DNA of 61,566 nt, filler included, from Kipferlia bialata (lineage: Eukaryota), in NCBI GenBank assembly GCA_003568945.1. It is 3 parts of 3 records of this genome, joined end to end, with 100 filler letters (N's around TTAATTAATTAA, not from the genome) between each part and the next. Parts side by side here need not be neighbours in the genome. Positions count along the whole stretch, not along the records: positions 1 to 26,776 come from BDIP01000103.1; positions 26,877 to 58,494 come from BDIP01000104.1; 1 more part is not named here. One strand, 5' to 3'. Position numbers and translations under genes: made by a program. Under the pieces are notes generated by a model that was not told the origin of the DNA, ran no database searches, and worked only from the letters and a program-made list of their open reading frames with translations. Position 1 is the stretch's first letter. Every line of letters begins with the position of its first letter. Below are positions 484 through 58,367 of the stretch, piece by piece.

Positions 484-2807
484 GTCAAGATCATCCTCGA
501 GGCTGCCCTGATGCTCTCTGCTGCCTTCTGGAGATTGTGTCCAGACAGGGCTCAGAAGTGGCTAGATACATACCTAGAGTATAAGGTATTATTGTCCATA
601 ATCTACCATATTTACATATACATACTAATGGAGACTGTGTCCTGGACACTGTCCAGACAGGGCACATGGGTGGCTAGATACATACCTGGAGTATAAGGTG
701 ATATACATTGTACTATCGATACTGCCCCCATCTACAAGGGGTCACACTCACATATATTTATGTGTATATATACACACACATACATGCATACATATATATC
801 TATGTGTCTCTTTAATACCTTAGGCAAGAGGCGATGCCGATATCTGCCCCACCCCCATCTACAAGGGGTCACACAAGAACCACCCCATGACACGGTATGT
901 GGGGGACTCACTGGCAAACTTCAAGGTGCGACGATGCATTCAAATAGAATACGTATATATATACATTTGGGGGGAGAGAGAGAGAGAGAGAGGATGCACA
1001 TTGACACGCTATGTGGGGGACTCACTGGCAAACTTCAAGGTACGGCTATTGGCATATACGTATATGGATATGATAGCACTGCTCTCACGTAACATTCCTA
1101 GTACGCTAACCCCCAGTACTCTGCCCACCATATCTTTGCAATATGTATGTGGGTTAATTGATTATTGTGTAACTATGTCAGCCTTACCCCTAGTACTACA
1201 CATAGGGATGGGCAGGCACGACGTCGGCCCCGACGTTGCCGACTTGTTGTGTACTAAACCATCAATGCATCATTACGTACCTATGTCAGCCTCACCCCCA
1301 GTACTCAGCCCACCATGCCTTGGCACTGGCAGAGGAGTACATATACAGGTATCACTATTATAATACAGTATATCGGCATTTCATATGCTATATGTACTAC
1401 ATAATTATATGCCCACCATGCCTTGGCACTGGCTGATGAGTATCGGTACAGGTACTATAACACTATATCACAATATATCACAATACGACACCTCTATACA
1501 TTTATACGTGTATGTGCTCGCTAGTCAATATTGTATTCTGCCGTGGCACTGGCTGATGAGTATCGGTACAGGTGGGGTATATGCGTATATATAGAAAGAA
1601 ATATTTCCCAATATGTATTGCCACTCTTCATCCGTGTTGTTATGATGCTATTTGAGTATCGGCACAGGTAGTGACATTAGGTTGGGGCTCATGCTGCTAC
1701 TATCAACTTGCTACTGGCCACTTGCTAGCCCTCTGTGTATGTACTGTATATCTACTATATATCTAGTGTCTCTATACTCGGTAGATACTGTTCACCCCCT
1801 AGGTTCCACAAGACCCACAAGTCGGAGAGAGTGATACGGTTCCTGCTAGAAAACCATCCTGATCCAGGTACTTTGTGTATATACTGTGTATGTATATGCT
1901 AATCACTACTAGGCCCATATTTGATATAGGGAACTCAGACTTGTCATTCACCCTAACCCAGCCCTCTTCCCTGTCAAGGCAGAGACACACTTACCACCTC
2001 CACAGTGCATGCCACAGGAGTATCAGGTACTGTATCATATAGAATATCCTATATAGACAGATGTATATATGGGTATATACCAATACAGTATATACCACCC
2101 CCACAGTGCATGCCAGAGGAGTATCAGGTATACAATACTATGCATCTATATACTAGGAAACCTTAAAGTCTTTACATATGTCTCATTGTAGGTCCCCGGC
2201 GACACTATCCTTGGCAACAGACAGTACTACATGTTGTGGATTATACTATATATATATTTTACTAGGTCCCTGGTGACACCATCCTTGGCTACAGACAGTA
2301 CTACATGGAGGGCAAGAGGCATATATATATATACATATACATGTATCAACAGTTATATGTATATATATCTCATACCAGGTGCCAGGTGACACTATCCTAG
2401 GCTACAGACAGTACTACATGGAGGGCAAGAGACACCTCGCATCCTGGAGACGCAGGGGCAAGCCATACTGGTACACTGTGGACGACAAGCTCCTCATAGC
2501 CGCAACACGTGCTGCGGGTAGGAAGACCATATTCCTCACACCAGATAGTGATGAGACTAGTGGTACAGTAGTGAAGAGTGAGGGTGTGGCACCTATTGTT
2601 CCTATTGTGGGAGAGGTCAAGGTTAAGCAGGAGGCAGTCGATCACCTGGTCAGACTAGTGGCACCAGAGATTGATTCCCAGATTGATTCCCAGATTGATT
2701 CCCAGATTGATTCTGGGATTGATCCGTCGCATAGGGTTGGCAAGAGGAGGGTGTCGAAGAGACTTGCTGCCAAGAGGGCGAGGCAGGCACTGAAGAGTAG
2801 TGTGTGA
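484..2807 (+). CDS. Pyrimidine-dimer DNA glycosylase/endonuclease V-like protein (phage/bacterial type), spliced, 5' exon(s) missing
   Basis: Phase-compatible GT-AG exons 484-585, 824-925, 1302-1348, 1803-1867, 1962-2026 and 2379-2807. They give VKIILEAALMLSAAFWRL..PIYKGSHKNHPMTRYVGDSLANFK..YSAHHALALAEEYIYRFHKTHKS..PPQCMPQEYQVPGDTILGYRQYYMEGKRHLASWRRRGKPYWY. This follows the family pattern VKMILExAQxL / YKxxHxNHP / EYxxRYxKxH / PxAMP / YRxYY..K..AxWxxRxxPxW, recognised from memory with no HMM run. Confidence 0.8.
2669..2713 (+). repeat. 12-bp coding minisatellite (GATTGATTCCCA)x~3.7 encoding IDSQ repeats
   Basis: Direct tandem copies inside the last exon of the glycosylase-like gene. Confidence 0.95.
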
Positions 2808-3041
2808 AAGGAATGATGGAATAGATATGGTTGTATCGTACTCATGTCAATCCAGTACTTACAGTGTGAAAGGATTTGACTAAGAATACTGCTAGAGGTA
2901 ACACTATTCCCTCTATTCCTACATATACACTCTGTCCATACACTCTAGGGCGTGGACATAGAAACTCAGACACACAAACGACACACACCAACTCTCTCCA
3001 TCTCACTCTTCTGAGAAGAGTCCTCTCCGTCTCTCTCTCTG

Positions 3042-3457: not shown

Positions 3458-3498
<41 letters not shown>

Positions 3499-6400: not shown

Positions 6401-9400
6401 GCAACCACGCACCGTCTCGGATGTCAGGAGCATGTTGTATATGAACTGCCTGTACTGCCGCTCCCTCTCCCTACCCCTCTCCCTCTCCCTCTCCCCCTGC
6501 AGCGTCTCCATCCTCTCCCCCACCCCACTCTCTGTAGGTACTGCATCTGCATAGTAGCTGAATGAGTATGCCCCAATCTGCCTACCCCTCGCACTATCCA
6601 GCAGGGACAGAGAGTGACTACTGTACGGTGACATGCCCATACCGTCTACAGTTGTGTGGCTACCCTCGTGTCTTATGTCACTGGCTGACACGCCAAACAC
6701 AGACACAGCCTCAGCGACACGGGGGGAGAGACTCCCGCCCTTGCTCTCCCTGGGGGAGAGAGAGGAGGGGGTGCCTAAAGCATACCCCTCACCAGCTTCC
6801 TGACCCCAGTCACTCTCTCTCTCTCCCTCTAGACCCCTATCTCTCTCCGTTGTGGACCCTGATGGTGGAAGAGATGCCTGGGGGCGCTGTGGGCGCATCT
6901 GCTTCTTCTCTCTCTTAGGAACCACCTCACTCTCACTCTCCTCTGACACGGATACCTCTTCAGAAGAGGGTGCATACGTGACGTCATCGATCTGGCATTA
7001 GTAGTCTCAGTACATAAACCCATATCAACACCTGGTATCATATATCTATACACTATACTATATACCTGGTAGGTGATGTGGGTCCGAGGTGTGCACGTAG
7101 TGGAGTGCCGTCTCTCACCCTCCACTATCCTCTCTAGTCCTGCTGCGCCCCTTACTTCTGCTGATAACACCCCTGCGGCACTATCAGGCACTGCATACAC
7201 CTCTCTATCTCCATCCACTCCCCCTTGCTCTATGTCTCTTGCCGTATGCAGACCTGATGTTGCCCTAGACGGTGCCGCTGAGCGCGTGTGGGAGTGCGAG
7301 TGGTGGATGGATGAGTTGGAGGCACCAGGTTGGGACAGGAGTCGGGAGTCGGAGAGAGAGAGCTTCCGTTCAAAGGTGCCGTCACTACTGTAGGTGTAGC
7401 TGTAGGAGCTCTCTCTTTCCATCTCTGCTTGTGACGCACACACTCTCTCTACTCCCTCCTCCCCATCCCACTGCGGTAGAGTACCCTCTACGAGTACATC
7501 ATCCTCTGTATCTGATACCACCACTGTGTCACTCACATCATCGTCATCACTGGCACTCTCTGATGCACTATTGTGGTCTCTCTCTCCACCCCTTCTGAGA
7601 GACGCTGCCCCTCTCACTGCGTTAACGTCTATGGTAGGCACTATGATGAGAGAGGGCTGGTGGGTCAGGGTGCGGACAGGCGTGGCCCAGGGCTTCACAC
7701 TGCTCTCTCTCTCAATGTCGCTATCCACACCACTTGAGAGGTCAGAGGTGGAGCTAGCAGTTCCTTCCCTCTCTGCCTCTCTCTCCAGTGTCTGTTGCTC
7801 TACCCTCACTGAGCTAGTAAGTCTCCTCCCCACCACCAAGTGAGGGGTGGCCACGCTGATATGGCCTCCCTCCATACCCACATCCTCCCCATCATCCGTC
7901 AGTGTGTCACTGACATCACTACCATCAGAGCACTCTCCATCTCCCTTTACATCCCTAGTAGGCCCTAGCCCAATCTCAGCGGGACAGGCATGTACCTCCA
8001 TGTACATACCCATACCCTCTCTCTCTCTAAAGGATACATCCACTCTAGATACAGATGGTATGCTGCCTCTCTGCCTGGTATCCTGTAGATGCCCAACCAC
8101 AACCACCCCATCACACCACTCACATGTACCCTTATGAGTAACAGGTGAATGGTTGGCTGACATAGAGACCGGTGATCCTCTCTGTGATATGGGGGAGGGA
8201 GGGAGGGAGCTGAGTATGGCTGAGCCAGTTAAGCTGTGACTCTCTCCGGTAAAAGCAGAAGGAGAGAGGTGGTTGACGAGTGCCGAGGCATCTCCTCTCA
8301 CACCTACTATCACTCTCCCCCTCTGCACCACTGTCATCTCTCTGTACAGTGCATGGAGACTGGGTATCACTGTAACACCAGCCTCGGGCACTATCAACAG
8401 GGTGTTACATGTACCCGTACCGGCTGATAGTAGGTGGGTGTATCTAGCCAGTATCTCACTCTCTCTCTCTGCGTCTCCACAGGCATCTCTCATGTCTACC
8501 AGTAGATAGGGTGTACTGGAAGTACCGGCAGCACTGTCTACACCAGAAGCAGAGGGAGAGAGTGGTACATACTCTCTACCCATCTGGACCTCACCGACGC
8601 ACAGTGTCTCTCTCTCCGTACCCGTTTCACTCTCAGCTGGGTATACTGTAGCACCATGTGCGTTGACAACCAGACCCTGGGACCCAATGCAGTCTCTCTC
8701 TCTCCCCCTCTTCTGACGGCGGTGCCACTCCTCAAACCTACGGTTAGATAGGATGAAGTATTCAATCTTACGATGCATGTATTCATATGTGTATATCTAT
8801 ACCTCTGCCTTTGTAGCTGGGATGTGACAATGGCATGGTCCGTGAGGGTGTATGTAGAATATACACTATATACATTATATATTCACTATGTATACATATA
8901 CATGCATATACCTTTGTCTGGGTAGTTGAGGGGTGACAATGGCATGGTCAGTGAGGGTGTCAACGTCAATCAGAGAGGCCTGGCAGTGAGAGGATAGTAT
9001 ATAGAATAATCGAGAGTGAAGTCTGACATACACGAGTAGTATATTTAGAGTAAATATATGGTAAATGTGGTATATATGTAGTACCTCAGCCAAGAACCCC
9101 AGCACCTCCTGTGCCGACAGGTGACTGATGGAGTCGGACAGGGCAGTATAGATTAACAAGTACACCCACACACACATATATATATATATACTACTATTAT
9201 CAATACCTTAGCAAGGTATCCCTGTACTTCCTGTGCCGACAGGTGACTGATGGAGTCTGACAGAGCAGTCAATATATAGTATATAATACATGTGTAGTAC
9301 ATACATAGTACCTTTGCTAAATATCCCAGTACTTCCTGTGCCGACAGGTGACTGATGGAGTCTGACAGGGCAGTGTCCAGGGAATGACTGGCGACAAGGT

Positions 9401-10919
9401 CAGTCCCTCTATCGTGCTCACCGTCGACATCCATCTCTCTCTCTCCCTCAGCCTAAAGAGTAAGCGGGAGGTAGGAAAGAGAACACATGAATATTCTACA
9501 CCAACATACTCACTGAAAGGAATGAAAGTCAGAAGATCCTATACAGTTATGAGTACGTGTATTGGCAAATAGTACCTGAGGCATCGTCGTTGCGGCATAC
9601 ACTGACAGCGAGAGGTGTGAGGTGTAAGACGGGGTTGCACCACTGTATCTCTGGGGGGAGGCAGAGGGTGAGACCCCAAACTGGGATAGTATGTTTCTCT
9701 CCCTCTGCTCCTCTGGTGTGACACCGTCACCATCAACCACGACTAGAGGCTCATCTCCCTCTCTCTCTCCCTCTCTCTCCTCCGTCTGTCTCTCTCTCTC
9801 CTCTCTGTACAGTATGTCTGCAGCATCGATCAGCTGGTGCAGCGCATTCCTAGAGAGTGAGAGAGTAAGAGAAACTCGTATAAATGCACTATCTAGTATA
9901 TTATACTATCACTAATATGTTAGTGTGTCTGCTGCATCGATCAGCTGGTGCAGCGCATTCCTAGAAATGAGGTAGAGAGAGAGAAACTCGTATAAATGCA
10001 CTATCTAGTATAGTATACTATCACTAATATGTTAGTATGTCTGCAGCATCGATCAGCTGGTGCAGCGCATTCCTAGAAATGAGGTGGAGAGAGGCAAGAC
10101 ATTAATGTACATTCATCATTATACTATAGAGCATAGTATACTATCCCTATTATGTTAGTATGTGGAATAAGCTACATCAACTGGTGCAGCGCATTCCTAG
10201 AGGGTGAGACAGAAAGAGAAACAATAATGCATTACTAAAGAGAAGTCAAAGTCACTATGAGTTTAGGGAAACAAAATATGGGTATATATATGTCAAGAGC
10301 GACAAACAAGAATAATATATAGTATATATATATATAAGTAGTGGGATGAACCTGTTAGTTGTGTCGAACTGGGACAGCATTGAGACAGAGACCACTCTGC
10401 TACAGGCACTCCTCTGTCTATGCATGCCCCTGGGGGTTAGTGGTATAGACAATAGTATACACAAATGGTATATACACATGTACATACCCACTGATATCGT
10501 CCCCTAGCCCTATGTCCAGGTGGGTGGGGGCAGCGCCTGCAACGGCTCTAGCACTGAGGGTGAGATAAATAGACTACAAAACACACAGTACAGTACACCT
10601 AGTTACTATCTCACAGTAGTCATTGCCAATAGAGTTCTATATATCTGTACCTATCTGCCTGCGTATAGTCATTAGTATCTAGTTGTATATATATCTATAA
10701 GTATGTGTATGAAAATATACCTAGCTGCCTGCCACACATTGGCCAGGTGGGGTCCAAACACATCGACACCCTTGGCCCTCAGGGCAACTACACAGAGGGA
10801 CCTATTGATAAGAACAAGGTGTATTATAGATACAACACTTATACACAATGATACGCATACACATCGACACCCTAGGCCCTCAGGGCTACCACACAGAGGG
10901 ATCTGATGTCATTATGAAT

Positions 10920-19307: not shown

Positions 19308-20612
19308 ATGAAGACTGTTGTCATCATATACACATCGGTCACTGGTAACACCAAGCATGTGGCTGAGGTATGGCTCCATGGGTGTATCCCCCTCTCCCCA
19401 TCTCACTCTTGGATATATTGTGTATACAGTAGATAAAGTTGCGTATCTACCTCTCTCTTCCTCTATGTCTGCCATTACACTCCTAGATGGCCCCATGGGT
19501 GTATCCCCATCTCTCTTTCTCTCTCTTGGGTCTATACAGTTGATTGTCTAGGTATCTTCCTCTCTTCCTCTATATATACCATATACCGCAACAGTAAGGG
19601 ACAATAGTGCATTGAACCACGTTGTTGGATCTATTGCAGCACCCCCTCTCTCACACTTTCTCCATGTGTCTATTCGATCACTATCAGTCTTCCTCTCTCT
19701 CATTCTCTCTCTCTCCCCCATAAAGTGTGAGTTTGTCTTAACCAGGCCTTTGCTGGGTGCCGGACGCTTGGATGTACCTCTCTCTCTCTCTCTTCCTCAC
19801 TGTCTCTCCCAATACTCTCCCTCTCTTCCCATACCTTTGTGTTATATGTATGAATAGTGTATATGTTGCAGGGCATACATATATACACTATTCATTGTGA
19901 TTATATATTTACATTTGTATGCTTGTAAATATATGTTCATACATAAGCACTATTCAGTGTTATTATATATTACTTGTAAATATATGTTCATCTTATCCCC
20001 TAGGTCATCGCTGAGTGTCTGACCAGGGACCATTCCCGACTATCAGATATATACATATCATTAAGAATATGGGTATACACTATGTGTACACATATCTTAT
20101 CCCCTAGGTCATTGCTGAGCGTCTGACCAGGGACCAAGGCACAAGTGACACATTCAGTGGGGACGCCATTACTACAGTGCTAGGTAGGGGACATATACAT
20201 AGTATACGCGTAGTACACAAGGTAATTACAAATATATGTATTTATGTATAGAACGTATAGAGAAAGAGAGGGTGGCAGACGTCACATTCAGTGGGGACGC
20301 AGTCACAACTGTACTGGGTTAGTTATTTATATAGAGATATTACATATCTGTATACGCCATTACTACGTAGGCACATCGTGTAGTAATAATGTCTCTATCC
20401 CTCTCTATCTCTCCCAATGTAACTATTTTTCACTATTCTAGCCTCTAACTCTCAATCAATGCCGACACTGAGTACATGAGACAGCACACCAGACAGTACT
20501 AATTCTGTATTTATATATATGCATATATATATATATACGACTATATATATATACCCTAACTCCAGTCAACGCCGACACTGAGTAAAAGAGACAGCACACC
20601 AGACTAATAGTA

Positions 20613-20646
<34 letters not shown>

Positions 20647-23600
20647 TATAATACATATCCCTAACACAGTCAATGCTGATGTGGAGTACAAGAGACAGCA
20701 CACCAGACAGGGCTACACCGGATATATAGCTGGTGACGCATACATTGTGGGTAGTACAACGGCAGGTATGGGGTAAACCATATACTCCTCTCTGCCTCCC
20801 TCTTCCTCTCCATATCCCCTCTGACCCCCCAGCCTCCAGGATCTCTGACCTCATGAGGGAGTACCTAGGTAGGGATGCATATCATAATTTTGTTATACCC
20901 AATTTACTATAACATATACTATTATTTATACTAGTGTCATATATATACCTCGGTATGTATTTGTGCTGATAGAAATGTGCTAATGGTCTATGTTCTATGT
21001 TACTATTAACATACTCTCCTCTGATACTGACACCTGGGCAAATGTATGTGCATCATAGTCATATGTGTTCTTTCTCTCTATTGTGTTCATCATGATTTCA
21101 TATGTTCTCTCTCTTTCCTGTGTTCACAATGATATCTCCTTCTTACCACAACCCCACTGCCATGGTGTCTGGCACAGCCACAAGTACTACTCTCTCTCTC
21201 CGTCTCTTTCTAGAGTTACTTGTATTACTATTGTTATTGCAATAACACGCCTACCATAGGCAACTACCCGACTGACATGGTGCCCTGTACATTGTGTACT
21301 ACTCTCTCTCTCTCTGTCTGTTTCTTGTGTTACCTTCCTGCATACTATGGTTATTGCAGTGTCACACACCTACCCTAGGCAACTACCCCACTGACATGGT
21401 GTCTGGCAAGCCCTGTGCTGTGTATGCACTGCATGCAGGGGACTGTGGATACGTCAGGTATGGTGGGTACTGTATATAGTATATAGTTAGTATCTGTATG
21501 GGTAAATACTATAAGTGGTGGGGACTGTGGATACGTGAGGTATAGTGGGTACTGTATATATATGTGTATACCAATATGTATTATGGTATTATGGTATATA
21601 TCACTATATATATATATAATATACATAATACTGATACTGATACTGATACTACTATACTAACCACTAGACGTGGTCTGTGCACTCTGATGAAGGGGAGGGT
21701 ATTAATATTAATATATAATACTGGTATATATACGTGTGTATGTATTATTGTTATATATGTCACTTACCCACTAGACGTGGTCTGTACACTCTGATGAAGG
21801 GCAGGGGCGGCATCCCATGCTCAGACCAACAGTTCAAGGTGGGTATAGATATGGGACATACATATATGTATATGTGTGCTGTTGGGTGGAGTACTTTACT
21901 TGTGCTTGTATATGCACGGTTCACGGCGAAAATCACTAATATGGATGAAATTACGTATTTTAGAGTGTTGTCGACATTTCATTCAGTATTTGGTCTAAAG
22001 TGCGGTTCTGCAACGTGTGTATTAATTGGTAACCAGCTGGGGCCCAACTTGCTCCAGTACTCTCTCTCACTCCCTATCTCTCCGTCTCTATCACGTAAGG
22101 CTATGTTTATACACCCATTCTCACCCCCAGGCCCCTACCAACTTCCTTCCATTCAAGAGCTACCCAAAGACAGGTATAGAATATCCGCTATCTTTCTCCT
22201 TCTCTCATTATTTCTATCTCTCCCTCCCTCTCTAGACACCTATATCAGGTAAGACGTCTAAATAGAAAGCACGAATACTTCCATACTTCTCTCTCCTCCT
22301 CTAGCCCACTATTCCAGGCAATTCTCTTGAATGATAGATATACGTAAATATATATAAGTACACCCCTAATTCCAGGTGGAGACCCTGGGTTGGGTCAAGC
22401 ACCACCATATACTCTCTCTCTCTCTGTCTCTCTCACACTCTCTCTCTCTCTAGACCCTTATATCAGGCGAGACTCTAGGTTGGGTCAAGCACCACCACGA
22501 CACCATAGCACCCTGGGCAGACACACTGCTAGGTATGTATATATATATATTTATATATTAATATAGGTAGATTGATTCACATATATAGATACATTAAGAG
22601 AGGGAGTGTATAATAGATTAGTTACACCATGGTACCTTGGGCAGACACTTCTTGGGTATGTATACGCACTAGTATAGTGTATGTCTATGAACAAGTGTAT
22701 TATAGTATTTATAGATAAGGATATACCTCCATGACACCATAGCACCCTGGGCAGGCACTCTCTTGGGTATGTGGATATAGTATATACAGATACTTATAGA
22801 TAGATACTTATATATATATCCCCATATAGCTATATAGCTAAATGGCTATAATGAGTGTTACTTCTGTCTGATACGTCTAAAACCAGCCTCCTTCGACGCT
22901 GCTGTGGCTGATCCCACCATATAGATAGATACATATATATATATACACATAGAGTGCTACTCATGTATTTATATGTCTTATCAATACTCTTACACCTCAG
23001 CCTCCTTCGATGCTGCTGTGGCTGATCCCACCAGGAAGTACAAGGCACCAAAGGGAGGTAAGTATGTGGTGGTATACATAAATGGAGAGAGAGGGAGAGA
23101 GAGAGAGAGAAAGAAAGATACCCACCAGGAAGTACAATAAGCCGAAGGTACAGATAGATATATGGAATCTGTATGTATGCCCTTTACATCCTTGACACTC
23201 ATTTGACTTCTCTCTATACATCTATCTCTGCCCCCCTACCCCCTTTACCCCAGGTGTCATGGGTGGTGTGATGGGTCTGATACCCGGCAAGAAGGTAGGC
23301 ATATATATGCATGTATATATACATGGAAGAATGTTTGTATCTATAAGGTTATGGTATTATACCCCCAGATTGATGTGATGGGTCTGATACCCGGTAAGAA
23401 GGTAGGTTGTATGGATGGATATGTAGTTATGGATGTATATATATATGTATCTACGTCATTGTATGATGCACCGCGATTGGGTCAGTGTGATAATTCGTTG
23501 TACCCGTTATTTACTTGATTGATTCCCATGATATATTCTACCCCCAGATTGACTCTATGATGCGTGGCATGCTGATACTAGAAGATATATCTTCTTAATT

Positions 23601-25970
23601 GATTCTTGCGATTGATTCCTGCGATGTATTCAGCCCCTAGATTGATTCCATGATGCGTGGCATACCCAAACTAGGGTCTGCCAACCTAATATATTATTAT
23701 ATATGATTCCTGCGATATACTAGTATATTATTAATTGATCCCCAGATTGACTCCATGATGCGTGGCATGCTCATACTGATACTTGCTATACTATATACTG
23801 ATACTTGGTATTATGATGTATTTCTGCTAAAAATGATTCCACTTCAGATTGATTCCTGTAATTGATCCCCAGATTGACTCCATGATGCGTGGCATGATGG
23901 GTCAGTTGGTGGCAGACCCACACAGATGCCTGAGGTATAGATATGGGAATATACATGTCACCCTTAGTGCCAAGTGTGTGTGGCATATACATATGTATCA
24001 TATAATATGTATGAATATGTATAAACGTTTACCCCCAGGTGTGCCAAGTATGTGTTCTCCCTCTCTCTCTCTCTCTCTCTCTCTATCTCTATCTCCCTAT
24101 ATCTCCCACCAGGTGTGCCAAGTGTGTCACTGTCTGTCCCTATGGGGCACTGGCCATGGTACAGGCAGAGACCGAGTCCGGTATACTACGTATATAGATG
24201 TCTACACATAGTGTGTGTGAAGAGTGGTTGTGTATGCGTGTGTATTGTATCTTGGAGGAAGAGACAGAGGCAGTGGTGTGTAGCTGTACTTATAGTCTAT
24301 TGTGCAAAATGTCCTTAAATTCACAGTATTCTTACTCATTCTCAGACACCACCTTTGACCGTCCTCTGTCCTCTCTCTCTCTCTATATATATATATATAT
24401 TCATAGAAGTGGATGTATATACTGATACTAACACCAGACGTCACCTTCGACCCCTCCTGTGTTGACCCAGCCACTGCATACTACCCACTCAGAGAGCAGA
24501 ACACAGAGTGAGTGGATGTGTATTATGTGGATATGTTAGAGGAGCGGATGAATAGGCAGTACACTACCTAGGTATACAGGCCAACACAGAGAATGCATTC
24601 ATCCGTATAGGGGGATGTGTGTGTAGTATTGTAGTATATATATATATATATATATAGTGGTGTATTTATATCATTACTGACCCCAGGTATATCCAGGATA
24701 GCAGCTGGTGTCAAGATATACACTGTATGAGAGCATATCTATCTATATACATATATATATATATATGTGTGTGTGTGAATGTCTAACCCCCCAGGTATGT
24801 CCAGTCCAGGATAGCAGCAGGTGTCAACTCCACCAGGGTGGTGGTGCATGACCAGGCACTCTGCCACGGGTGCTACAGGTATAGATGTATACACGTGTCT
24901 CTCTCTCTCTATCTAAATGTATAACTATATATTTATTTATGTGTGTATATATATAGAGAGATAGACAGAGATTTTGGTGCATGACCTGTCACTCTGTCAC
25001 GGATGCTACAGGTGTATATAGATATATATATGGAGATATATGGATATATGGAGAGAGAGAGAGAGAGAGAAGGAGGAGTGACTGTGCCACGGGTGCTACA
25101 GGTATAGATACCATTGCCCTATACACGTATGGACAGACACTAGTTAAGATATAGATGTACAACTATTGACAAGGCACTATGCCCCTGGGTCCGGGTAATC
25201 AATACACACAATAGTAATATATGTGTGTACACTAAATGTATATATATTTGTATTCATTATTTGTATCTTTATATAGTGTCTTGTGTGTACTCTCCCTCTC
25301 ATCACAGATGCATCCACGTGTGCCCCACCGCTGCCCTGAACCCAGTCAAGAGACAGGAGACATGGCGGAGTATGCCTAGGTATACACAAGTGTATACAAA
25401 TACTACGAGAGGGAGAGGGAGAGATACATCAAGATATGGTGGAGTATGCCTAGGTATAGGGTTTGTATGTATAAATACTAAGAGAGGGGGAGAGAGAGAT
25501 ATATGTCAAGACACGTGGAGGAGTATGCCAAGGTATACACTAGTGTATATATATATATATATATACATATATGTAGAGAGAGAGGAAGAGAGAGAGAGAG
25601 AGAGAGAGAGAGCCAGGACACTTGGAGACACAGGCCTAGGTATATACGGTAGTCTATATGGTAGTGTATATATGTATATTTGTGACACACACATATACAT
25701 ACGTGTATGTCAAACTCCATTTACACCTACACCGATGGCATTGTTGTGGACTAATATATATATAGATACTTATAGAAATATATCCCTCTCTCCCTTTGTC
25801 TGCCTTGCTCCAGATACACATACACCGATACTATATAGTATAGTATAGTATAGTATAGTTTGTAGTATATATCTAACTCCAGGTACACCTACACCGATGG
25901 CATTGTTGTGGACTCCAGACACTCCAAGATGGGTGAGGGGGAGTTTGATAGGGTCGTGATCAGGGAGTAG
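19308..25970 (+). CDS. Flavodoxin-like domain fused to two 4Fe-4S ferredoxin motifs (EFR1-type architecture)
   Basis: Exon 1 (19308-19367) reads MKTVVIIYTSVTGNTKHVAE, the flavodoxin FMN-phosphate loop S/T-x-T-G-N-T. Later exons give GKPCAVYALHAGDCG and IDSMMRGMMGQLVADPHR. Spliced CLR|CAKCVTVCP and CHGCYR|CIHVCP are two CxxCxxCxxxCP motifs. The last exon ends FDRVVIRE* at 25970. Confidence 0.85.
23540..23895 (+). repeat. Exon-echo array: three upstream copies of CCCCAG/CCCTAG|ATTGA(C/T)TC(C/T)ATGATGCGTGGCAT before the functional exon
   Basis: Copies at ~23548, 23641 and 23746, with the functional exon at 23873. Period about 95-125 bp. Confidence 0.9.
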
Positions 25971-26776: not shown

Positions 26777-26876
26777 NNNNNNNNNNNNNNNNNNNNNNNN
26801 NNNNNNNNNNNNNNNNNNNNTTAATTAATTAANNNNNNNNNNNNNNNNNNNNNNNNNNNNNNNNNNNNNNNNNNNN
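26777..26876. other. Artificial scaffold-joining linker (N44-TTAATTAATTAA-N44)
   Basis: 12-mer with stops in all six frames centred in Ns. An identical construct lies at 58495-58594. Confidence 0.97.
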
Positions 26877-26925: not shown

Positions 26926-27113
26926 GGGAGAAGGGCAGTATCTGTACGTATTCACTGACAGATTGGAGAGGGGTCAGGAGGCTAGGGGGGAGGAGAGAGT
27001 ATGAGGGTGGATGGTAAATATGAGTGACCTGTAGTGAGAGACAATTTCACCTTATAGTATACGCATACACATAAAACACAAGCATGCACATAATAAACAC
27101 CGCTTCCACCCAC

Positions 27114-49279: not shown

Positions 49280-52200
49280 ATGGAATACTCGGACCCTCTG
49301 GTTGACACCACCCACTCCCACCTGATCCACACCCCTCTCAGTGTGTATGTGGTGTCAGAGGAGGGACTGGAGGAGACAGAAGGTATCTTCAGCTTCGATT
49401 TAGTCACCATCGTTGTCTCCCCTTCACACCTCCCCGTGCACCATATTCTCTATTTCTCTCCTAAGCCTGATTCCAGGCACCTGGTATAGCGTTGATCCTG
49501 TCGGCCCCCTGAGCGTGTCTCCTATTCCACCTGAGTCTGTTCACACCCACCTTGCTGACATGCTGGGTGGACACACCCACCACACACTGTGGGTGGTAAC
49601 CAATCCCACCTCCGCATCATCCCCCTCAGTCACTACCAAGGCCACTGACGATGAGGCATCAACATCCTCTGCCACTCTCTCCCCTACGACATTCAGACGG
49701 GGCATCCTCACTCCTGCCTCAGTGTGTGTAGTGGATGCATCTAGTACACCTGTGGGTGGAGAGGGTGTGGAGTGTACTGTCCAGACAGTGAGGCCTGACA
49801 GGACTAGTGTGGACGCCTCATACACTGGGGTGTGGGATACCACATCGTCGTGCTACACCCTAAGGATGGAGGTCACATACGACTCCGCAGCCAATGTAAG
49901 TGTCATATAGTATATATTTTTCTTTTGTATATGTCACTTGCCTCTCTCATTATTAAGAGAGTTGTTTCACCCCCAGGTCTACATCGATGGCTGTCTTGTG
50001 CAGTCAATCGACATCACCACCAGGGACCCCCACACCCGTCCCATCCTGCACTACCCCAGTGAGGAGCAAGGGGGTGACGGAGACCTCCTCGGCAGCAGTG
50101 TCTCTCTCTCTGGGTCCACTCTGTTAGTGGGTGCCCCAGGTGCCGGAGAGGCAAGAGTAATGGAGGTGGTGGATGACACACTCACAGTCACATCCACACT
50201 GTCTGACCCTGACATCCCTCTCTTTGGAGAGGCTGTGTCTATAGATGGAGAGTGGGCTGCTGTCGGTGGGTACACTGCTGGGGGCGCCTGTTCTGTCAGA
50301 CTGTACCACTACCAGGGGTCAGACTGGGTGGACACGACCCAGGTGTTCAGCCCCATCACCAGTGATGCAGGTGGTGTGGCTGTCACTCTGGAGGGTGGTC
50401 TACTGGCCATAGGGTGCATGGCTGCAGAGGACTCTGGTGCTGTAGGCAGTGCCACTGTGTACACTGTAGAGACAGGCACATGGGTGATGGAGTCCTTCTT
50501 TGTAGGTACCGATGCCGGGTATGGGCACTCTGTGTCTCTAGACAGTGTGAGTGGTACGGACATGCTGGCGGTGGGTGGCAAGGGGTCAGCCTATGTGTAC
50601 ACCAGGGATACATCCTCTGGGGTATGGGACACCACACCCTACACGGTGGAGACAGACACTACCGATGAGGAGGATGAGGACTATCCATACAATGGGTCTC
50701 TGCTCTCTGTCTCTATGTATGACACGGTACTGGCAGTGGGTATACCACTCAAGGAGGAGGTACGCATATACGTTCTCTCTACTACTACATAACCATGTAT
50801 TCATAAGTGTATTGCCTCTTTCTCACCCCAGCTCCGAGTGTACAACTGTCCGGAAGGCACATGCTCATACCTCAACAGACTGACACACACCTCTGTCAAT
50901 CAGGACTCACTTTATGGTGTCTCCGTGGAACTGTACGGGAACAGTATGGCAGTGGGAGTGCCGGGTACGTATCTTCCTTCTACTCCTGACCCAAAATAGG
51001 TGGTAATATTTTGATTGATCAATATATGTTATAGTCTCACTATCAGGCAGGCGCACTGAGGACGGCGGTCTGTTCATCTACCAGCGTACCACAAGGTATA
51101 CCAACCACAATGTATCTCATTCACCATCACACACTCTCTCACACCAGCACCTCTGGATGGCGTATGACGTCCTATGTCGACGCGTACTACAACGAGTATC
51201 TAGGGTACTCAGTTGCCATATCGTCCAGTATGGCAGTAGGAGGCATGCCGAGAGACAACTCCTCGGAGGGCACTGTCTTGATTGTAGACGAGGGATACAC
51301 TGTACCGGTGACACCACCTATCATAGGGGGATTCAGAGAGCTCAAGCTAGACCCAGTCCGTGATTCATACGGAGAGGCAGTAGTGGATACGGTCTCCATC
51401 AACATGCATGTCAACGGGGCATATGCAGGGTTCCAGTGGCTGGAAGAGGAGGAGAAGTACCTCTCCCTGCGTCAGAACAGCTACCCGCCTGGCTCTTCGT
51501 CCTCTGTTGGATACTATGTGAGGCCTGTCGGTGATACCAGGCCTGTCTATCTCAGACTGTGGCACTCTGTGTCTATCATATTCGGCCCCACTGTTGGCAT
51601 TGATGCCCTACCCGCCATGATTGAGGTGGGTGGAGTGCTCCACATTTATATATGTATTGTCAGTCTATTTTCTAGTTAATATGCTATGTATGGTGTATAG
51701 CATATTTCCACTGCTCTCTTCATGATCAGTATATATTATATACTAGTACACTATGCAGGTACTAACCTCTCAGGGTGACCATGTGGAGCTGCGTATCTAC
51801 AACGAGAACGGACTGGCTATCACCGATGCCAACAGAGCGGTGTCCATAGCATGGACACAAGACACCCCAGTGTATGTGGATGCAGTGTGGGACAGTGAGA
51901 GAGAGGTCCACCTGGCCGCCCTCTCCCCCTCCACCATCACGTCTGATACCTCTGCTGCCCCCTCTGCCCCAGTCTCTGTCACAGTGACAAGCAGCACATA
52001 CGGCACATTGGGGGTAGAGGGGGAGGTGGCACTCTTCAGTGCAGAGGGCCTCTCCTCTGCTGGTGTTGTCACAGTGGCCCCTACCTCCTTTGCCGAGGGT
52101 GTGACAAGCAGTGTGCTGGTCACTGTGGTGGATGGCGAGGGTAGAGTAGTGGGTGGCAACCATGCGGATGTGACGGTAGTGGCAGGAGAAGGGTCTTGCC

Positions 52201-55200
52201 AGGTGTACTGGGACCAAGACCTCTATGCATTTGAGGCAGAGGTGGTGGTGCGTGAGCAAGGGACGCTGCAGGTGGTGTATGGGAGTCAGACCATCCTGTC
52301 GGAGCCTGACATCTACACGTACTACCCATATACAGTGGTCAGAGAGATGCAGGAGACAGAGGATGACGCAGTGGATATATACACCTATGGAGACACTGTC
52401 GCCATATCAGGGGACTGGGCCGCCGTTGCTAATCCCCTAAGGGATTCATCGTCCTACGGGTATGTGTACCTCTACCACAGGGTGGAAGGGTGTGTGTGGG
52501 AGCTCTCCCAAACCGTGCGTATCTATAGGAAGGAGAGAGTGTCTGTCGCACTCGATGGAGAGTGGCTGGTGATTGGCAAGATGGCCACCATCCATCACGA
52601 TGTCGACATCTACAAGCTCATAGAGGGCCAGTGGGAGTTGCACCAGGTACCGTATACATACATACTTCGATTCTCTCACTCTATCTGATATTTGTACTGT
52701 AACACCTTTCCTCATCCCAGGTATTCTACTACTCGTCTGTGGTCCACTTCTACCCTGAGCTAGATGTGTTCTTGAACAGCGTGTCTATGAGGGATGGGCT
52801 GTTGGTAGTGGGTAGACCCGAGGATAGGAGTGACGTCAACGGCTATGTCTATGTATACCAGTTGAGGGACAACATCTGGCAGAGCGTGGGTCGCATACCT
52901 GCATCTACCATCCTGGGTGATGGAATCGAGGCAGTGGCTGAGTTTGGGTGCCATGTGTACACGGATGGAGTGAGGGTTGGGGTGGGGTCCTTGGTGTCCA
53001 CTGATGCATCTGTCACCGAGGCCACGGAGAGCCACATCTCTGTCTTCGAGCAGTTTGGCACATCCACCACATCTTGGGAGGTTGTGATATCGTCTGCCGG
53101 TGACAGAGTGGCCATGTATCATGACACTGTTGCCATATCCAAGTACTTCTTAGTGAGTAACCCTGAGCCCTCTGTTGACATATATGCTCTTGTGGATGGG
53201 GGGTCAGTGGATGAGAGTGGGGACCCTATTCTAGAGTGGAGAGTGCAGCAGACACTGTCGGGGAGCAGGGAGGGTGACTTCGTTCCCGCTGCCTCTTCCT
53301 TCGGTGCCACTCTGGCCTTCTTCCACGATACCCTTGTGGTAGGGGGAGGGGTGGGTCTCAACATGTACCAGCCTGGGACAGAGGGGTGGGACCTTCGCTG
53401 GCAGTCTACCCTCAATGATAGCGAGAGACCTATCGAGAGTGTGGCTATAGGGGGCGATGCCGTCCTCGCCCAGGTGGGTGAGGGCCGCGTTGCCTTCTTC
53501 GAGTCTAACTGGGACACATGCCCCCCAGAGGGTATCGAGTTGTCAGTGGACGCCGGTAACTACGGGGTCTCTGTTGCTCTGACCCCCACTGCTGCTGACC
53601 TATGGGTGGATGATGAGGCTAGAGTGGGTATCGAGTACAAGTCGGATAAGGGAGAGTACCCCCTTCTGCTACAGGATGGAGGGGACGAGGACTCTCTACT
53701 ATGGTCTAGGGACACACAGTGGCTGGTGCCCGGGACAGTGGTGCTGGCAGACATCGACGGGATGAGGTACCAGTCTGACTATGTGAGGGTCAATGAGCAC
53801 ACCGTCAATGTCATCACGGGGGCATCGTCTACAGCACCGAGTCTAGTCCTAGTCTCCACCGGGGGTGTCCAGAGTATCACGGGCGTAGCACTCGCAGATG
53901 TGTACCCAGATGGCCTCGCGGCTACTGTTGTTATAGGTGGGTTGATAGGTGTGGTCTTGACTTCTTGAACTCAGATGGGTGGTTCCCGTGATGGATGATC
54001 AACATATAACTAACCCCAGGCGATGACGGTGTTGTGCGGCACTCCATCATTGACACGAATGAGACTGAGACATACTCTGTGGCAGTGTTTGACACCCCTT
54101 TGGATGTGCCATCCTCTTGGCAGCAGGGTGCCTCAGGCCAGGTCCTACCCGTCCCCCTCTCTGTCACTATACAACAGGATGGGGTGGAAGTTAGTGAGGC
54201 AGGGACCGGCTGGATCACTGCCTCCTCCACTGTTGTCATACCCACTAGGGGAGAGGTGGTGCATCAGGATATGGACCCAGTCCCTAGGGGGGCATGCTCA
54301 GAGGTCCAGGTTGCTCTGTATGACGCAGATGACAACTATGTGTCATGTGCGTCACCTGGTGTTGCCATTGAGCAGCCGTCATCAGAGCCCGATGACAGAT
54401 ATGTCCTATATCCACTTGGTACCACCAGTCACTGCACGATGCACTTCTGTGTTCCTGACAATGCCCCCGTCAACTCCAGGATACTCATCACATACGAGGG
54501 CAGGACACTGGTCTCTGTGCCAGTGGCAGTATCAGCAGCTGTTGACACCCATGTGTGGGTGACAGCCTCATACCTATGCATGCCTCTATTGGTGATTGTG
54601 CTAGGTTGTGTGTCCCTTGGGGTGAGTACCAAGCACCTTGCCCCTCCCCCTCCTGACATTGTCGAGGCCTGTGACGATGCAAGCACAAGGACATTCCGCA
54701 TGTTCTACCCGATTAACGTTGTGGTACTCGGCCTCCTCAGGTGTGATTCTTCCATTGTAATACAATACTCTCACTAGCAGTTTTCCTCCCCACTCATCTA
54801 ATCGACAGGGTTCTCGGTTTTGCCATTGACTTCTATGTGGTGCTTCGCTTCCTCGGCTACTTCTGGAACGTCCGCATAGCCACGAGACTGACCACCCTGC
54901 CTGTCGTCAAGTACCCTGTGCTTCTGTCCTCATGGCTAGCTGCATGGACATCCTCTGTCATAAAGGGCATAGCAGACAGAGACACATCCCCCTTGGTCTG
55001 TGTGCTCTGGTACATGGCTGGATGTGCTATCTTGGTGGCACTCGTTGTTGTGCTCTTCCGTCTCTGTGAGATGCAGGTGAGTATCGCGTAACTCTACGAA
55101 GATAACAACAAGTACCTGTCTAACACTCAGGTCAAGGCCTCTGAGCACAAGAGCCGTCTGTATGTGTACCCCCCCTTCCATCTAGCCAAGAGTGTGGGTG

Positions 55201-57255
55201 TCATCGCTGGGTGTATCCTCAGTGACATGGTGCTGTGGATGGTGGTGGGTGGGACAGGCCTCTCAAAGGGACTGGCCCTGCTTCTTATTGGCGTTGTAGC
55301 TGTTCTCTGCTACACCCTCATTGCATTCTTCGGAAACATGGAGATTCAGGCAGTCATTGTACACACACAGGTCGGTGATGGATATTTATGATTACTCTAT
55401 GTTCTACACCTATATCTCTCACTCCAGGAGTCCCTAGAGATGTTCTATGACTGGCTGAGGGGCGGAGACAAGCGCCGCAGACTGCTGTTGCGCTGGCTGG
55501 GGGCTGTCTTCGTAGGCCCCTCATACCTCTCCTACATGGTACTCTCCCCCTTCACCCACTCCCTTGCATATGTACTGATGTCCGTGTGTGGGGTCTATGA
55601 GTGCCTCTCAGCCACTGTAGAGCGTGTCACTCACCTGGTCGTATGTGTTCTCCTAGGTGCAGTGGTAGGGGTGTTCGTCTATCCCTTCACTCCCTATGCT
55701 GCAGGTATCGCTGGTTTCTGCCTTTTCTCGGACCTAGTTCTGTCCCTCTTGCTCGACCCCAAGACTCGGTTTGATCCCTACACAGTGGCCCAGGAGCGTG
55801 TGCGTGTGATGAACAGAAGGGTCTGGGATCTGAGGAAGGACCCGATCAAGCAGGTATTACACTTCCTTCTATTCTATTCGCTATTGGATTATTGTCTCTT
55901 CCTAATCAAATATACATTTCTATGTATCTGACCTGTTTTGTTCCCTTGACCCACAGGACCCTACCATGGCTGAACGCTATGTCGAGCTGAACTCTGCCCT
56001 TAGACGCACCTCCCTCCTCGTGTGTCCCCTTGTCGGACCTGTTCTATCCACTGTAGGGGACACACTCTCCTCCCCACCTCTACTAGTCCCTGGAGTGCGG
56101 CGCTACACCCTCAACTGGAGCACCAACCTGATATCCCTCGTGTGTCTGTTCTCACTTGTGGTTAATACCGACAGAGCTGGCATTCGTGTCCTGGCTCTGA
56201 TGATGTACGTCATATTGCAGGTACAGTGCAATGTCGTATGTCTATACCTATATTGTCCTGTCACCCCTCACAGTAGGCCTTCGATGTGTGTCAACGTTCC
56301 AGAATGCTAGCTAAGCGTTTCCGCCGTGCTGGATACATTGTGACCCCTGCTGATGTCCAGAGAGCTATCCCTGACCCAGGTGTGTATATGAGTATATAGT
56401 GTATATGTATGAAGAGAATATGTCAGATTGACGGTCTCTATGGTTGCGTTACGGAGAGAAGTGTGGTTTAGAGAAGGATACGCTATATCATTGTCCTCAC
56501 CCCAGTTGCTGAGGCCATGCGTCCCAGTCCCGTGGCCAGAGTGTTTGGATGGGGCAGGTGTGTATATGTATACATATATATTGAGTGTGGTCATAGAGTG
56601 CAATTGCAAACTCTGTTAGTCCTGCTTTGTTGATGTGTATCTTATCAACCAGGAAGGCTGGCCGCGCTGCCTCCAAGGCCGGCTCTAAGCTACGCGGTGG
56701 CAACCCTACACGTGCCCCTCCTGTGCCCACCCGCACCCCCCTCTCCTCCACTCGGACCAGGCAGTCACCCCCTCCCCCTCCCTCCCGAAGACAAGAGACT
56801 GCCCCACCAGCAGAGGGGGTGTCACTAGATAGATTGGACGCCTCGCAGACACGCACGCGGCCGTCACCCCCTCCCCCTCCTATACGGAGAGAGGCATCGA
56901 ATGCATCACTGCTATCCAGGTCTGAGAGCACCAGCAGGAAGTCCCCCCCTCCCCCACCCTCTAGACGCAGTGCCGCACCTGCACCTCCTGTCCCTACTAA
57001 TACTGAGAGGGAGAGGGCTAGTACTAGGGCTGCCCCCCCTGCACCCCCTCCCAGGAGCCCAGTGCTAGGGAGCAGCAGCAGTAGGACTCTGCTGAGTAGC
57101 AGGTACTTACGATGCACCATCTGAGTATTTCTGTAATGCAAGTCTATTATAGTATGTCAATGGCAATTAACCCCAGGAGTACGTCGCAACTAGGTGCTTC
57201 CCGCACTGCGCCCCCTCCCCCTCCCCCACGGAGAGAGACCAGGGGAGAGCTGTGA
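49280..57255 (+). CDS. Large surface protein: FG-GAP-like beta-propeller repeats, beta-rich spacers, multi-pass TM region and Pro-rich cytoplasmic tail (5' end uncertain)
   Basis: About 17 exons with short introns. Repeats LGSSVSLSGSTLLVGAPG, FGEAVSIDGEWAAVG, YGHSVSLD, YGVSVELYGNSMAVGVPG, LGYSVAISSSMAVG, YGDTVAISGDWAAVANP and FGATLAFFHDTLVVG. Many hydrophobic segments at 54560-56380. Tail with PPPPPSRR repeats ending RRETRGEL* at 57255. Confidence 0.8.
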
Positions 57256-57566
57256 CTATCACAGTGATAGCGCATGATGTATATTGATATCAGCTTGAAT
57301 GTACTTCATATCGTCATACTGACTGACATGACTAGAGAGTCATACTCGACTGAATTCCCTTGTACCTGTATTCCATAAATAGGACATTTTAACACTCTCG
57401 TAGTATATACACTGAAGTAGTGACCGAGCTGCACACTGGGAATATATATGTCCATGATATAATAATATGATTATGAGACTGCGGCAAAGATGATAGTTGA
57501 GTAAGATAAGAGGAGACACCCGGTCACAAACCAACACCAGACTACCCATATCCATTTACACCCCCT

Positions 57567-58367
57567 CTACTCGTGCCCCTCATCCAGAGTGAACATCGCC
57601 ACCAGTCCTGAGGTGTCTCCATTTGCATTGACCTGGGGGTAGGAGAGACACAATCGACACTGGATATATATAACTGGCCAGAGATTTGACTTCAGATACA
57701 TATACATATCCACATAATGACCTCCACCCACCAGCATGTCTGTGGCCCATATTGATATGTATGCACACTCACACATCTATATATGCCACCAACCTGTATG
57801 TCTGTGGCCCCGTGCAGCACTAGCGTGTCTCCCTTCATTAGAGAGTCAGTCACAGTGTCAACACCTGGGTCAGAGGGGACTGCACACATGGGACACCCAA
57901 TGACTCAATACATAGTATGGCCTCATACATATGTCATGATTATCAGAGTGTGCATATATGTATGTCACAATACCTGTCGTATGTGCCTGCACTGTCTCCC
58001 CCTCCAGCACATACATCAGGTGGGTGTGTCTAGGGTCCAGTCGGGTGGCCAGAGGGAGCTTGGATACCTGGGCGGTGAGACACTCAGAAGAGAGAAAGAG
58101 AAACAGAAAGAGATCAGTGGACTTGGGGGGGGGGCAAGTGAAGTACCCACCCTGACTGAAGCCCCAGCCTTGACTGGATCAGTAGTAGTACCTGTATAGG
58201 TATCACACGATAAGTATCCCTTCTATACCTTCACTGATGCCCCGGCCTTAGAGGGGTCGTATATGAGACCCAGGTCCTTGATGGGGCCTCTCAGTAACTC
58301 GCAGTGTGTGTCATCACTGCCACTAAAGACAGCTGGGACATGGGTCTCATAGGGGGTGCCATTCAGG
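57567..58367 (-). CDS. HutD/Ves-like (cupin-fold) protein, 3' four exons; 5' part beyond scaffold end
   Basis: Exons 58367-58229, 58067-57974, 57864-57794 and 57632-57567 give PAVFSGSDDTHCELLRGPIKDLGLIY..HLMYVLEG..LMKGDTLVL. This resembles HutD PFxFSGDxxVxxxLxxGPxxDFNLM..LxYVLxG..LxxGD. Confidence 0.6.

What the first reader, a model, noticed from the sequence alone, without database searches (positions are those of the whole stretch)
2192..58172. Echoes differ from the functional exon mostly at synonymous sites
Hand alignments (synonymous/nonsynonymous codon differences): echo 2266-2320 vs exon 2379 is 5/0 (gtc/gtg, cct/cca, acc/act, ctt/cta, agg/aga); echo 2192 is 4/1; minus-strand echoes ~9204 and ~9082 vs ~9309 are 4/1 and 6/2; kinase echo 39114-39079 is 3/0; TTLL9 echoes 29477, 30336 and 31584 are 2/2, 2/0 and 3/1, including agg vs cgt for Arg; HutD echo ~58153-58172 is 3/0. 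Total about 32 synonymous to 7 nonsynonymous. A neutrally decaying intronic copy should give mostly nonsynonymous differences. The echoes may therefore be snapshots of functional alleles inserted by unequal exchange or templated repair between divergent haplotypes, or still be translated or selected, or the exon may diverge rapidly at silent sites away from its echo. Caveat: I chose the cases by eye.
Basis: partly seen in the sequence, partly recalled or inferred. Interest (0 to 1): 0.88.

Follow-up and report, generated by a model that had tools for sequence, protein, structure and literature searches.

The report
Introns archive former exon-end alleles
In this stretch of the protist Kipferlia bialata about four in ten introns hold short copies of the neighbouring exon's end with its splice site, and these copies differ from the working exon five times more often at silent than at protein-changing positions, so they are likely former working alleles shunted into the intron by misaligned recombination, which would be a record of sex and very high diversity in a group where neither has been observed.

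Summary
Confirmed, but weaker than the hand-picked tally. The window is Kipferlia bialata. A codon-blind search of 148 modelled introns found 98 echoes in 62 introns: about 30 nt of exon end plus GT or AG, repeating every ~105 nt. Codon differences are 153 synonymous to 98 nonsynonymous (61%, not 82%; neutral 25%, frozen copy 40%). Fourfold sites differ at 23.6%, nondegenerate at 4.8%: ratio 4.9 (bootstrap 3.8-6.5), where a frozen copy gives 2. Changes private to the nearest echo are also silent-biased (P=0.001), so the exon is not simply drifting away. Echo and exon share single full-depth DNA contigs (11 of 13 checked); a spliced TTLL contig and the deposited kinase protein exclude the echoes. 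So: not an artefact, not translated where checked. Best reading (0.6): out-of-register exchange between alleles ~25% divergent at silent sites parks once-working exon ends in introns; a toy simulation reaches ratio 4 only this way. No second strain was available to test it. The scan noted similar junction echoes before in a sea-urchin gene, without this silent-site result shown.

The parts
484..2807 (+). Gene A (unnamed; 6 exons modelled, 5' end not found); 9 echoes in 4 of 5 introns
   Evidence: open spliced frame, GT-AG introns; echoes; no Pfam hit for two exons
2192..2233 (+). acceptor echo (far) of exon 2379-2807, 4 syn / 1 nonsyn
2266..2322 (+). acceptor echo (near) of exon 2379-2807, 6 syn / 0 nonsyn over 19 codons
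3330..19126 (-). Gene B (large unnamed protein; 38 exons modelled in two parts around an assembly gap); 33 echoes in 20 of 36 introns
   Evidence: open spliced frames; model not checked against RNA
9085..9147 (-). donor echo (far) of exon 9312-9452, 6 syn / 2 nonsyn
9207..9269 (-). donor echo (near) of exon 9312-9452, 4 syn / 1 nonsyn
19308..25970 (+). Gene C (flavodoxin- and ferredoxin-like by recalled motifs; 16 exons); 24 echoes in 11 of 15 introns, up to three per junction
   Evidence: open spliced frame; model not checked against RNA
27567..33234 (+).
   Evidence: Pfam TTL E 8e-10 on one exon; RNA contig lengths 386 and 847 nt equal the echo-free model
29477..29515 (+). acceptor echo of exon 29583-29667; includes the two-base Arg change cgt/agg
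   Evidence: on one DNA contig with its exon
30336..30357 (+). acceptor echo of exon 30443-30508
   Evidence: not wholly spanned by a listed DNA contig
31584..31613 (+). acceptor echo of exon 31695-31774, 3 syn / 1 nonsyn
   Evidence: on one DNA contig with its exon
36233..47511 (-). Gene F, Ser/Thr kinase KIPB_000839; 48 exons; 18 echoes in 15 of 47 introns, none in the deposited protein
   Evidence: (1406 of 1406 residues match)
39079..39114 (-). acceptor echo of exon 38937-39029, 3 syn / 0 nonsyn
   Evidence: on one DNA contig with its exon
49977..57255 (+). Gene G (long exons, short introns; modelled part): internal control with no echo in 13 introns
57567..58367 (-). Gene H, HutD family; two weak donor echoes (score 13), one at 58151-58174, 3 syn / 2 nonsyn over 8 codons
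   Evidence: Pfam HutD E 1e-5
58682..61067 (+). Gene I, WD40 protein (BUB3/RAE1-like by recall); 3 scored echoes in 3 of 8 introns

Best explanation
The echoes are real tandem copies of exon ends with their splice site, left out of the mRNA where checked, and they likely descend from exon ends that worked in other, highly divergent alleles and were moved into the intron by out-of-register recombination. Shown: each unit is about 30 nt of exon end, its GT or AG, and about 72 nt of intron-like spacer; units sit beside their own exon; divergence is about five times higher at silent than at constrained sites. Inferred: (1) a first copy arises by local duplication or a repair slip that spans one junction; (2) because introns of different alleles are microsatellite-rich and hardly alignable, the 30-nt exon pieces are the only local homology, so a homologue's exon sometimes pairs with the echo; (3) the exchange puts the other allele's working exon end, splice site and intron into the echo slot, the reciprocal product deleting a unit; (4) the captured piece carries the silent differences that separated the two alleles and only then decays neutrally. 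This needs allelic diversity near 0.2-0.28 at silent sites and recurrent exchange between different haplotypes, that is sex or parasex.
For: Ratio 4.9, P=3e-11 against the frozen-copy value 2, 0 of 5000 junction bootstraps at or below 2; the same for donors (5.1) and acceptors (4.8) and for genes E+F alone (4.8); holds for every reference base, third-position changes symmetric in direction. Changes private to the nearest echo: 10/91 fourfold, 8/360 nondegenerate, P=0.001 against 1, and as frequent at fourfold sites as exon-private ones, 9/91. Echoes without any nondegenerate change still differ at 14.6% of degenerate sites; seven synonymous codon pairs need two base changes. Intron flanks align in only 15 of 79 units, with 19% substitutions, like fourfold and unlike nondegenerate sites; only 4 of 20 near-identical echoes have an alignable flank. 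Toy simulation, pooled over 7 runs: no exchange 1.9, sister exchange 1.5, conversion within the array 1.5, out-of-register allelic exchange 2.7-4.1. Precedent for the needed parts: silent diversity 0.20 in Schizophyllum (PMC4576712, abstract) with crossovers concentrated in exons (PMC4209137, abstract); metamonads lack NHEJ, fornicates lack Rad51A and keep Dmc1, meiotic genes are conserved (PMC8516963, passages).
Against: No second haplotype was seen: the DNA run shows no alternative exon letters over 13 kb (contigs drop variants), and no other strain turned up, so high diversity and exchange are inferred from one genome. Echo-versus-echo ratio 3.3 exceeds 2 only at P=0.035 and far-echo-private changes do not exceed 2 (P=0.36). 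Ordinary in-register crossing-over alone gave 2.7 pooled and up to 4.2 in single runs; single runs without allelic exchange reached 2.8 and 3.5. The higher silent divergence next to the junction (49/157 against 37/170, P=0.06) was not reproduced by the simulation. Flank divergence may reflect microsatellite slippage rather than time. Sex has not been observed in metamonads (PMC8516963). One 61-kb window only.
Confidence: 0.6

Rival explanations
1. Echoes are ordinary same-allele duplications that decay neutrally; the excess arises because normal in-register crossing-over or allelic conversion later swaps the working exon for a divergent allele. This still needs high diversity and recombination, but echoes are not former alleles.
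For: Simulation of in-register exchange alone gives pooled ratio 2.7, single runs 1.6-4.2; exon-private changes have the highest silent bias (9/91 against 5/360); some units are plain recent duplications with the intron included (9922-10072).
Against: It leaves echo-private changes neutral, but near-echo-private changes are silent-biased (P=0.001); it predicted more silent divergence away from the junction (0.25 against 0.21) and the data lean the other way; near-identical echoes mostly lack an alignable flank.
Confidence: 0.13
2. The divergent templates were not alleles of an outcrossing population but long-separated chromosome sets (hybrid, polyploid or ameiotic heterozygote) or paralogues, exchanged by mitotic repair and later lost.
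For: It gives the same silent-biased signature; fornicates are thought to rely on homologous repair (PMC8516963, passages); no sex has been seen.
Against: Junctions with two or three echoes often show three or four distinct versions, more than two sets would supply at once; no second copy at 90% likeness or more was laid on the exons of genes E and F.
Confidence: 0.12
3. Echoes are under present purifying selection because some transcripts splice them in as alternative exon halves, or because they serve as repair templates for the exon.
For: Amino-acid sites are conserved; echo splice sites score as high as real ones (donor 6.7 against 6.3, acceptor 7.0 against 6.3); 79 of 94 junction-near echoes keep GT or AG; flank divergence matches fourfold divergence, as it would if only echo coding sites were held.
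Against: 0 of 79 echoes have the matched second splice site needed to replace their half exon; echoes cover a median 36% of the exon; 3 stops among 98 nonsynonymous codons (4.2% expected if neutral) and 3 frameshifts seen by eye among 4 gapped pairs inspected; the TTLL contig has the echo-free length and the RNA run shows no other letters; conversion within the array lowers the ratio (1.5).
Confidence: 0.07
4. Selection drives the working exon away from its echo at silent sites, to avoid mis-splicing or deletion.
For: Exon-private changes are strongly silent; silent divergence is highest in the first 6 nt from the junction (36%).
Against: The exon is not the outlier: fourfold changes private to exon, near echo and far echo are 9, 10 and 10 of 91; intron flanks are as diverged as fourfold sites, so the exon's silent rate need not be raised.
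Confidence: 0.05
5. The assembler placed two divergent alleles in tandem.
For: Short-read draft with gaps; only contigs, possibly from the source reads, could be laid; two of 13 echoes in the tested stretch were not spanned.
Against: 11 of 13 echoes lie with their exon on one separately assembled contig with no other letters or gaps, at depth 448-475 against 444-521 for all eight listed contigs; up to four versions per junction; stops and frameshifts in echoes; the RNA run shows only the exon version.
Confidence: 0.03

Closest known systems
Human F7 intron 7 37-bp VNTR spanning the exon 7-intron 7 border (PMC1557585, abstract read)
   Same: Tandem units begin inside the exon, repeat the donor site in the intron, and the repeated sites are intact yet silent; the site nearest the exon is used.
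   Different: One human locus with identical donor sites; here 98 units at 76 junctions of one 61-kb window, acceptors as well as donors, ~105-nt units with unalignable spacers, and a purifying-selection signature between copies.
Intron gain by tandem genomic duplication of an AGGT-containing exon segment (PMC3443670, passages read)
   Same: Local tandem duplication involving exon sequence and splice signals; leaves exon-like sequence inside an intron.
   Different: There the duplication makes a new intron out of exon sequence; here an existing junction is copied into an existing intron, which grows by about 100-150 nt per echo (median 99 nt without, 249, 367, 468 with 1, 2, 3 echoes).
Hypervariable Schizophyllum commune: silent diversity 0.13-0.20, crossovers confined to conserved exons (PMC4576712, PMC4209137, abstracts read)
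   Same: The diversity level and exon-centred exchange that the best explanation requires.
   Different: The abstracts report no junction echoes; in Kipferlia diversity and crossovers are inferred from one genome, not measured.
Mutually exclusive exons from tandem exon duplication (recalled, no paper read)
   Same: Neighbouring exon-like copies that differ mostly at silent sites.
   Different: Those are whole exons with both splice sites and are translated; echoes are part-exons with one site and are skipped where checked.

Membership tests
Junction-spanning VNTR (F7 IVS7 type) | unit spans the exon-intron border and repeats in tandem into the intron | tested here: met
   94 of 98 echoes reach within 10 nt of the junction, period mostly 74-138 nt
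Junction-spanning VNTR (F7 IVS7 type) | repeated splice sites intact but not used | tested here: met
   79 of 94 keep GT/AG with normal scores; not used in the TTLL contig or the deposited kinase model; genes A, B, C, H, I unchecked against RNA
Junction-spanning VNTR (F7 IVS7 type) | units nearly identical along their whole length | tested here: not met
   spacers align in 15 of 79 units; fourfold sites differ at 24%
Junction-spanning VNTR (F7 IVS7 type) | copy number varies among individuals | not testable with these tools
   no second isolate found
Intron gain by tandem genomic duplication | intron begins with a copy of the downstream exon and ends with a copy of the upstream exon | tested here: not met
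   the reverse: upstream-exon echoes precede downstream-exon echoes in 14 of 14 introns holding both
Mutually exclusive duplicated exons | copy has both splice sites or a matched internal pair | tested here: not met
   0 of 79; median 36% of exon length, maximum 87%
Mutually exclusive duplicated exons | copy appears in mRNA | tested here: inconclusive
   absent from the main TTLL contig; contigs drop minor isoforms
Mutually exclusive duplicated exons | purifying selection signature between copies | tested here: met
   fourfold/nondegenerate ratio 4.9
Hypervariable recombining species (Schizophyllum type) | silent diversity above about 0.1 among isolates, crossovers in exons | not testable with these tools
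   inferred only: echo-exon fourfold distance 0.28, nondegenerate 0.05 after correction
Haplotypes collapsed in tandem (assembly artefact) | copies on separate or half-depth contigs, both versions in RNA | tested here: not met
   11 of 13 echoes on one full-depth contig with their exon; no other letters in the RNA run

The most novel reading that the evidence does not exclude
Across the Kipferlia genome tens of thousands of introns grow by captured exon ends of other alleles, so one genome stores a dated sample of its species' allelic diversity (about a quarter of silent sites) and of outcrossing in a metamonad; echoes cycle back into function by reciprocal exchange, and the reduced spliceosome must ignore full-strength upstream acceptors to tolerate them.
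Probability: 0.5. Interest if true: 0.88.

Novelty: new variant of a known kind. Interest (0 to 1): 0.76.

Why it matters
If true, a single genome would reveal both extreme diversity and allelic recombination in Metamonada, where meiotic genes exist but sex has not been observed, and it would make that question directly testable with a few isolates. It names a route of intron growth (about a third of the modelled intron length here: 10.5 of 29.9 kb) driven by recombination at short exon islands in an organism whose group lacks NHEJ. It also sets a splicing puzzle: full-strength branch/acceptor copies about 105 nt upstream of the real acceptor are skipped, which first-AG scanning would not predict. 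In practice, echoes fool gene finders (my own model took many for micro-exons) and read mappers.

Tried and rejected
No whole genome is held, so the test stayed within the window. A metagenome scan with a kinase-gene exon gave one weak unrelated locus (49% over 37 residues); the protein search gave only the window's own protein among 69 candidates of 185-2000 residues: no second isolate. The run search listed no run on record as RNA; run X2 is a guess, though its contigs skip introns. RNA support exists only for gene E and the 3' part of gene F; genes A, B, C, H and I rest on open frames and GT-AG ends. The first automatic gene model absorbed echoes as micro-exons and was curated by removing them. 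For the 847-nt check one exon had two in-frame donors (32421, read by eye; 32442, from the model); 32421 fits. Base composition as cause: rejected, the fourfold excess holds for all four bases. Search bias: rejected by simulated echoes. The junction-proximal gradient (P=0.06) and the near/far difference in nondegenerate changes are not counted as discriminating: the simulation gave no gradient and gave near<far under every mode. The donor-before-acceptor order follows from tandem geometry and is no proof of exon definition. A first single-run simulation was too noisy. PMC12625411 (passages) proved irrelevant. Searches for a prior description listed none for Kipferlia; the genome paper's main text has no hit for 'duplicat', 'heterozyg', 'ploid' or 'alternative'. 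Supplements were not read, and subscription papers are outside the library.
Full report
Source. A 105-residue exon of the kinase gene matched one protein at 100%, KIPB_000839 of Kipferlia bialata, a free-living fornicate with 124,912 GT-AG introns (PMC5874029, passages and methods section read). No whole genome is held for this window, so all counts below are for 61.6 kb.

Gene models. I bootstrapped a small gene finder; it took many echoes for micro-exons. Removing them left open frames with GT-AG introns for genes A, B, C, E, F, G, H, I: 158 exons, 148 introns (5' ends of A, F, G, H, I, the gap-spanning intron of B, one junction of G and the MLLE fragment are not modelled). Two outside checks exist. 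The 48-exon model of F equals the deposited protein at 1406 of 1406 residues (that annotation is AUGUSTUS with transcript hints). A spliced contig of run X2 over gene E places 386 and 847 nt between its listed pieces, the same as the echo-free model; these two intervals contain all 11 scored echoes of E.

Anatomy. An ungapped, codon-blind search of each intron against its two flanking exon ends reached score 14 in 77 of 296 cognate pairs and 2 of 592 non-cognate pairs. After dropping one low-complexity row, 98 echoes remain at 76 junctions in 62 of 148 introns; 44 copy an exon's 3' end, 54 a 5' end; 94 reach within 10 nt of the junction and 79 of these keep GT or AG. Median echo length is 30 nt, 36% of the exon. 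Units repeat every 105 +/- 17 nt, of which 72 +/- 17 nt is intron-like spacer (93 of 96 periods under 160 nt). Median intron length goes from 99 nt without echo to 249, 367 and 468 nt with one, two and three. Gene G, with long exons and repeat-poor introns, has none in 13 introns. Echo splice sites score as well as the real ones.

The observation. The nine named cases hold, 34 synonymous to 11 nonsynonymous over my spans. In the unbiased set the tally is 153 to 98 (61%), against 25% for neutral decay and 40% for a frozen copy beside an exon that drifts at silent sites (P=2e-11). Simulated echoes passed through the same search give 0.95 (neutral) and 1.94-1.99 (frozen copy). The excess holds for each reference base, and third-position changes run equally towards GC and AT.

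Not an artefact. In 26940-39940, 11 of 13 echoes lie with their exon on one contig of DNA run X1 with no other letters or gaps, at depth 448-475 (range 444-521 for the eight listed contigs); the few variant rows fall in a low-complexity intron patch and a high-copy repeat. X1 may be the source data and contigs drop rare variants, so this is a separate assembly, not a separate sample.

Not translated where checked. Besides the two model checks, no echo of 79 has the matched second splice site needed to replace its half exon; 3 of 98 nonsynonymous codons are stops (4.2% expected under neutrality); three of four gapped pairs inspected show frameshifts; run X2 shows no other letters. Minor isoforms remain untested, and five genes lack an RNA check.

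Which lineage carries the signal. At 19 junctions with two or more echoes, using the two nearest, fourfold changes private to exon, near echo and far echo number 9, 10 and 10 of 91 sites, nondegenerate ones 5, 8 and 17 of 360. Under serial same-allele duplication the near echo's private changes must be neutral; they are not (P=0.001). Echo-versus-echo gives 3.3, which exceeds the proper bound of 2 only weakly (P=0.035), and far-echo-private changes do not exceed it (P=0.36). Intron flanks beyond the copied GT or AG align above background in 15 of 79 units, with 109 substitutions in 561 sites (19%), and in only 4 of 20 near-identical echoes. So the neutral distance between units looks like the fourfold distance, and it is the nondegenerate distance that is suppressed: both copies spent most of their separate history under protein-level selection. 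Microsatellite slippage could inflate the flank figure.

Mechanism (inferred). Since echoes are not translated now, the simplest way to have been selected is to have been the working exon end of another allele. Out-of-register pairing between an echo and a homologue's exon, the only local homology when introns are this divergent, puts that working end into the echo slot and deletes a unit in the reciprocal product. A toy forward simulation (150 haploids, 7 runs per mode, chosen parameters, constrained sites lethal) gave pooled ratios of 1.9 without exchange, 1.5 with sister exchange, 1.5 with conversion inside the array, 2.7 with in-register allelic crossovers and 2.7, 4.0, 4.1 with rising out-of-register allelic exchange; single runs scatter widely, and no junction gradient appeared. 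Only modes with exchange between alleles pass 2 when pooled. Corrected distances of 0.28 and 0.05 imply silent diversity near 0.2 or more, in the range of Schizophyllum commune (0.13-0.20; PMC4576712, abstract), where crossovers fall in exons (PMC4209137, abstract). Metamonads lack NHEJ, fornicates lack Rad51A but keep two Dmc1 copies, meiotic genes are conserved, and sex has not been observed (PMC8516963, passages). No second isolate was found to test this.

Relation to what is known. The geometry is that of the human F7 intron 7 minisatellite, whose repeated donors stay silent (PMC1557585, abstract, found); it is the reverse of intron gain by tandem duplication (PMC3443670, passages) and lacks the paired splice sites of mutually exclusive exons (recalled). 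Searches listed no description for Kipferlia and none of this silent-site signature; supplements and subscription papers were not seen. How the spliceosome skips full-strength upstream acceptors is open; PMC6679479 (passages) reports 87 spliceosomal proteins and no snRNA candidate in a preliminary search of this species.

Verdict. Real, pervasive in this window, not explained by neutral decay, search bias, assembly or translation. Allele capture by out-of-register exchange is the best reading (0.6); readings that need divergent templates of some kind sum to about 0.85. New variant of a known kind; interest 0.76.

Noticed in passing
window 33800-35850: Intergenic element with very high DNA depth (contigs at 25,000 against about 480) and 99-nt tandem repeats at 35368-35706: a multi-copy repeat or mobile element between the TTLL and kinase genes.
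   Followed up: no
window 49977-57255: Gene G (FG-GAP-like repeat, weak Pfam hit) has long exons, 52-126 nt introns poor in dinucleotide runs and no echo in 13 introns, unlike its neighbours.
   Followed up: partly
window 23295-23401: A whole 74-nt GT-AG intron is followed by 5 nt of the next exon and then a copy of the previous exon's end: a fused acceptor and donor echo, i.e. a duplication that spans an entire intron; a possible skipped 33-nt pseudo-exon.
   Followed up: partly
window, all echo arrays: Repeat period is narrow (105 +/- 17 nt; one of 96 below 74 nt), and the spacer (72 nt) equals a short intron; short units may be removed by selection against competing splice sites.
   Followed up: partly
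window 47512-48475: The RNA contig of the kinase gene has 259 nt upstream of exon 47458-47511, whereas the deposited protein starts with 20 residues encoded at 47815; a candidate first exon ends at the donor below 48215, so the annotated start may be wrong.
   Followed up: partly
window 26480-26713 (-): Last exon of a gene with an MLLE domain (Pfam E 1e-9), cut off by the assembly gap at 26777; a 12-nt AT palindromic linker sits between N runs at 26821-26832 and again at 58539-58550, marking scaffold joins.
   Followed up: no
window, acceptor echoes: Echo acceptors score at least as high as their real acceptor in 23 of 42 cases yet are skipped in gene E, which argues against simple first-AG selection in this spliceosome.
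   Followed up: partly
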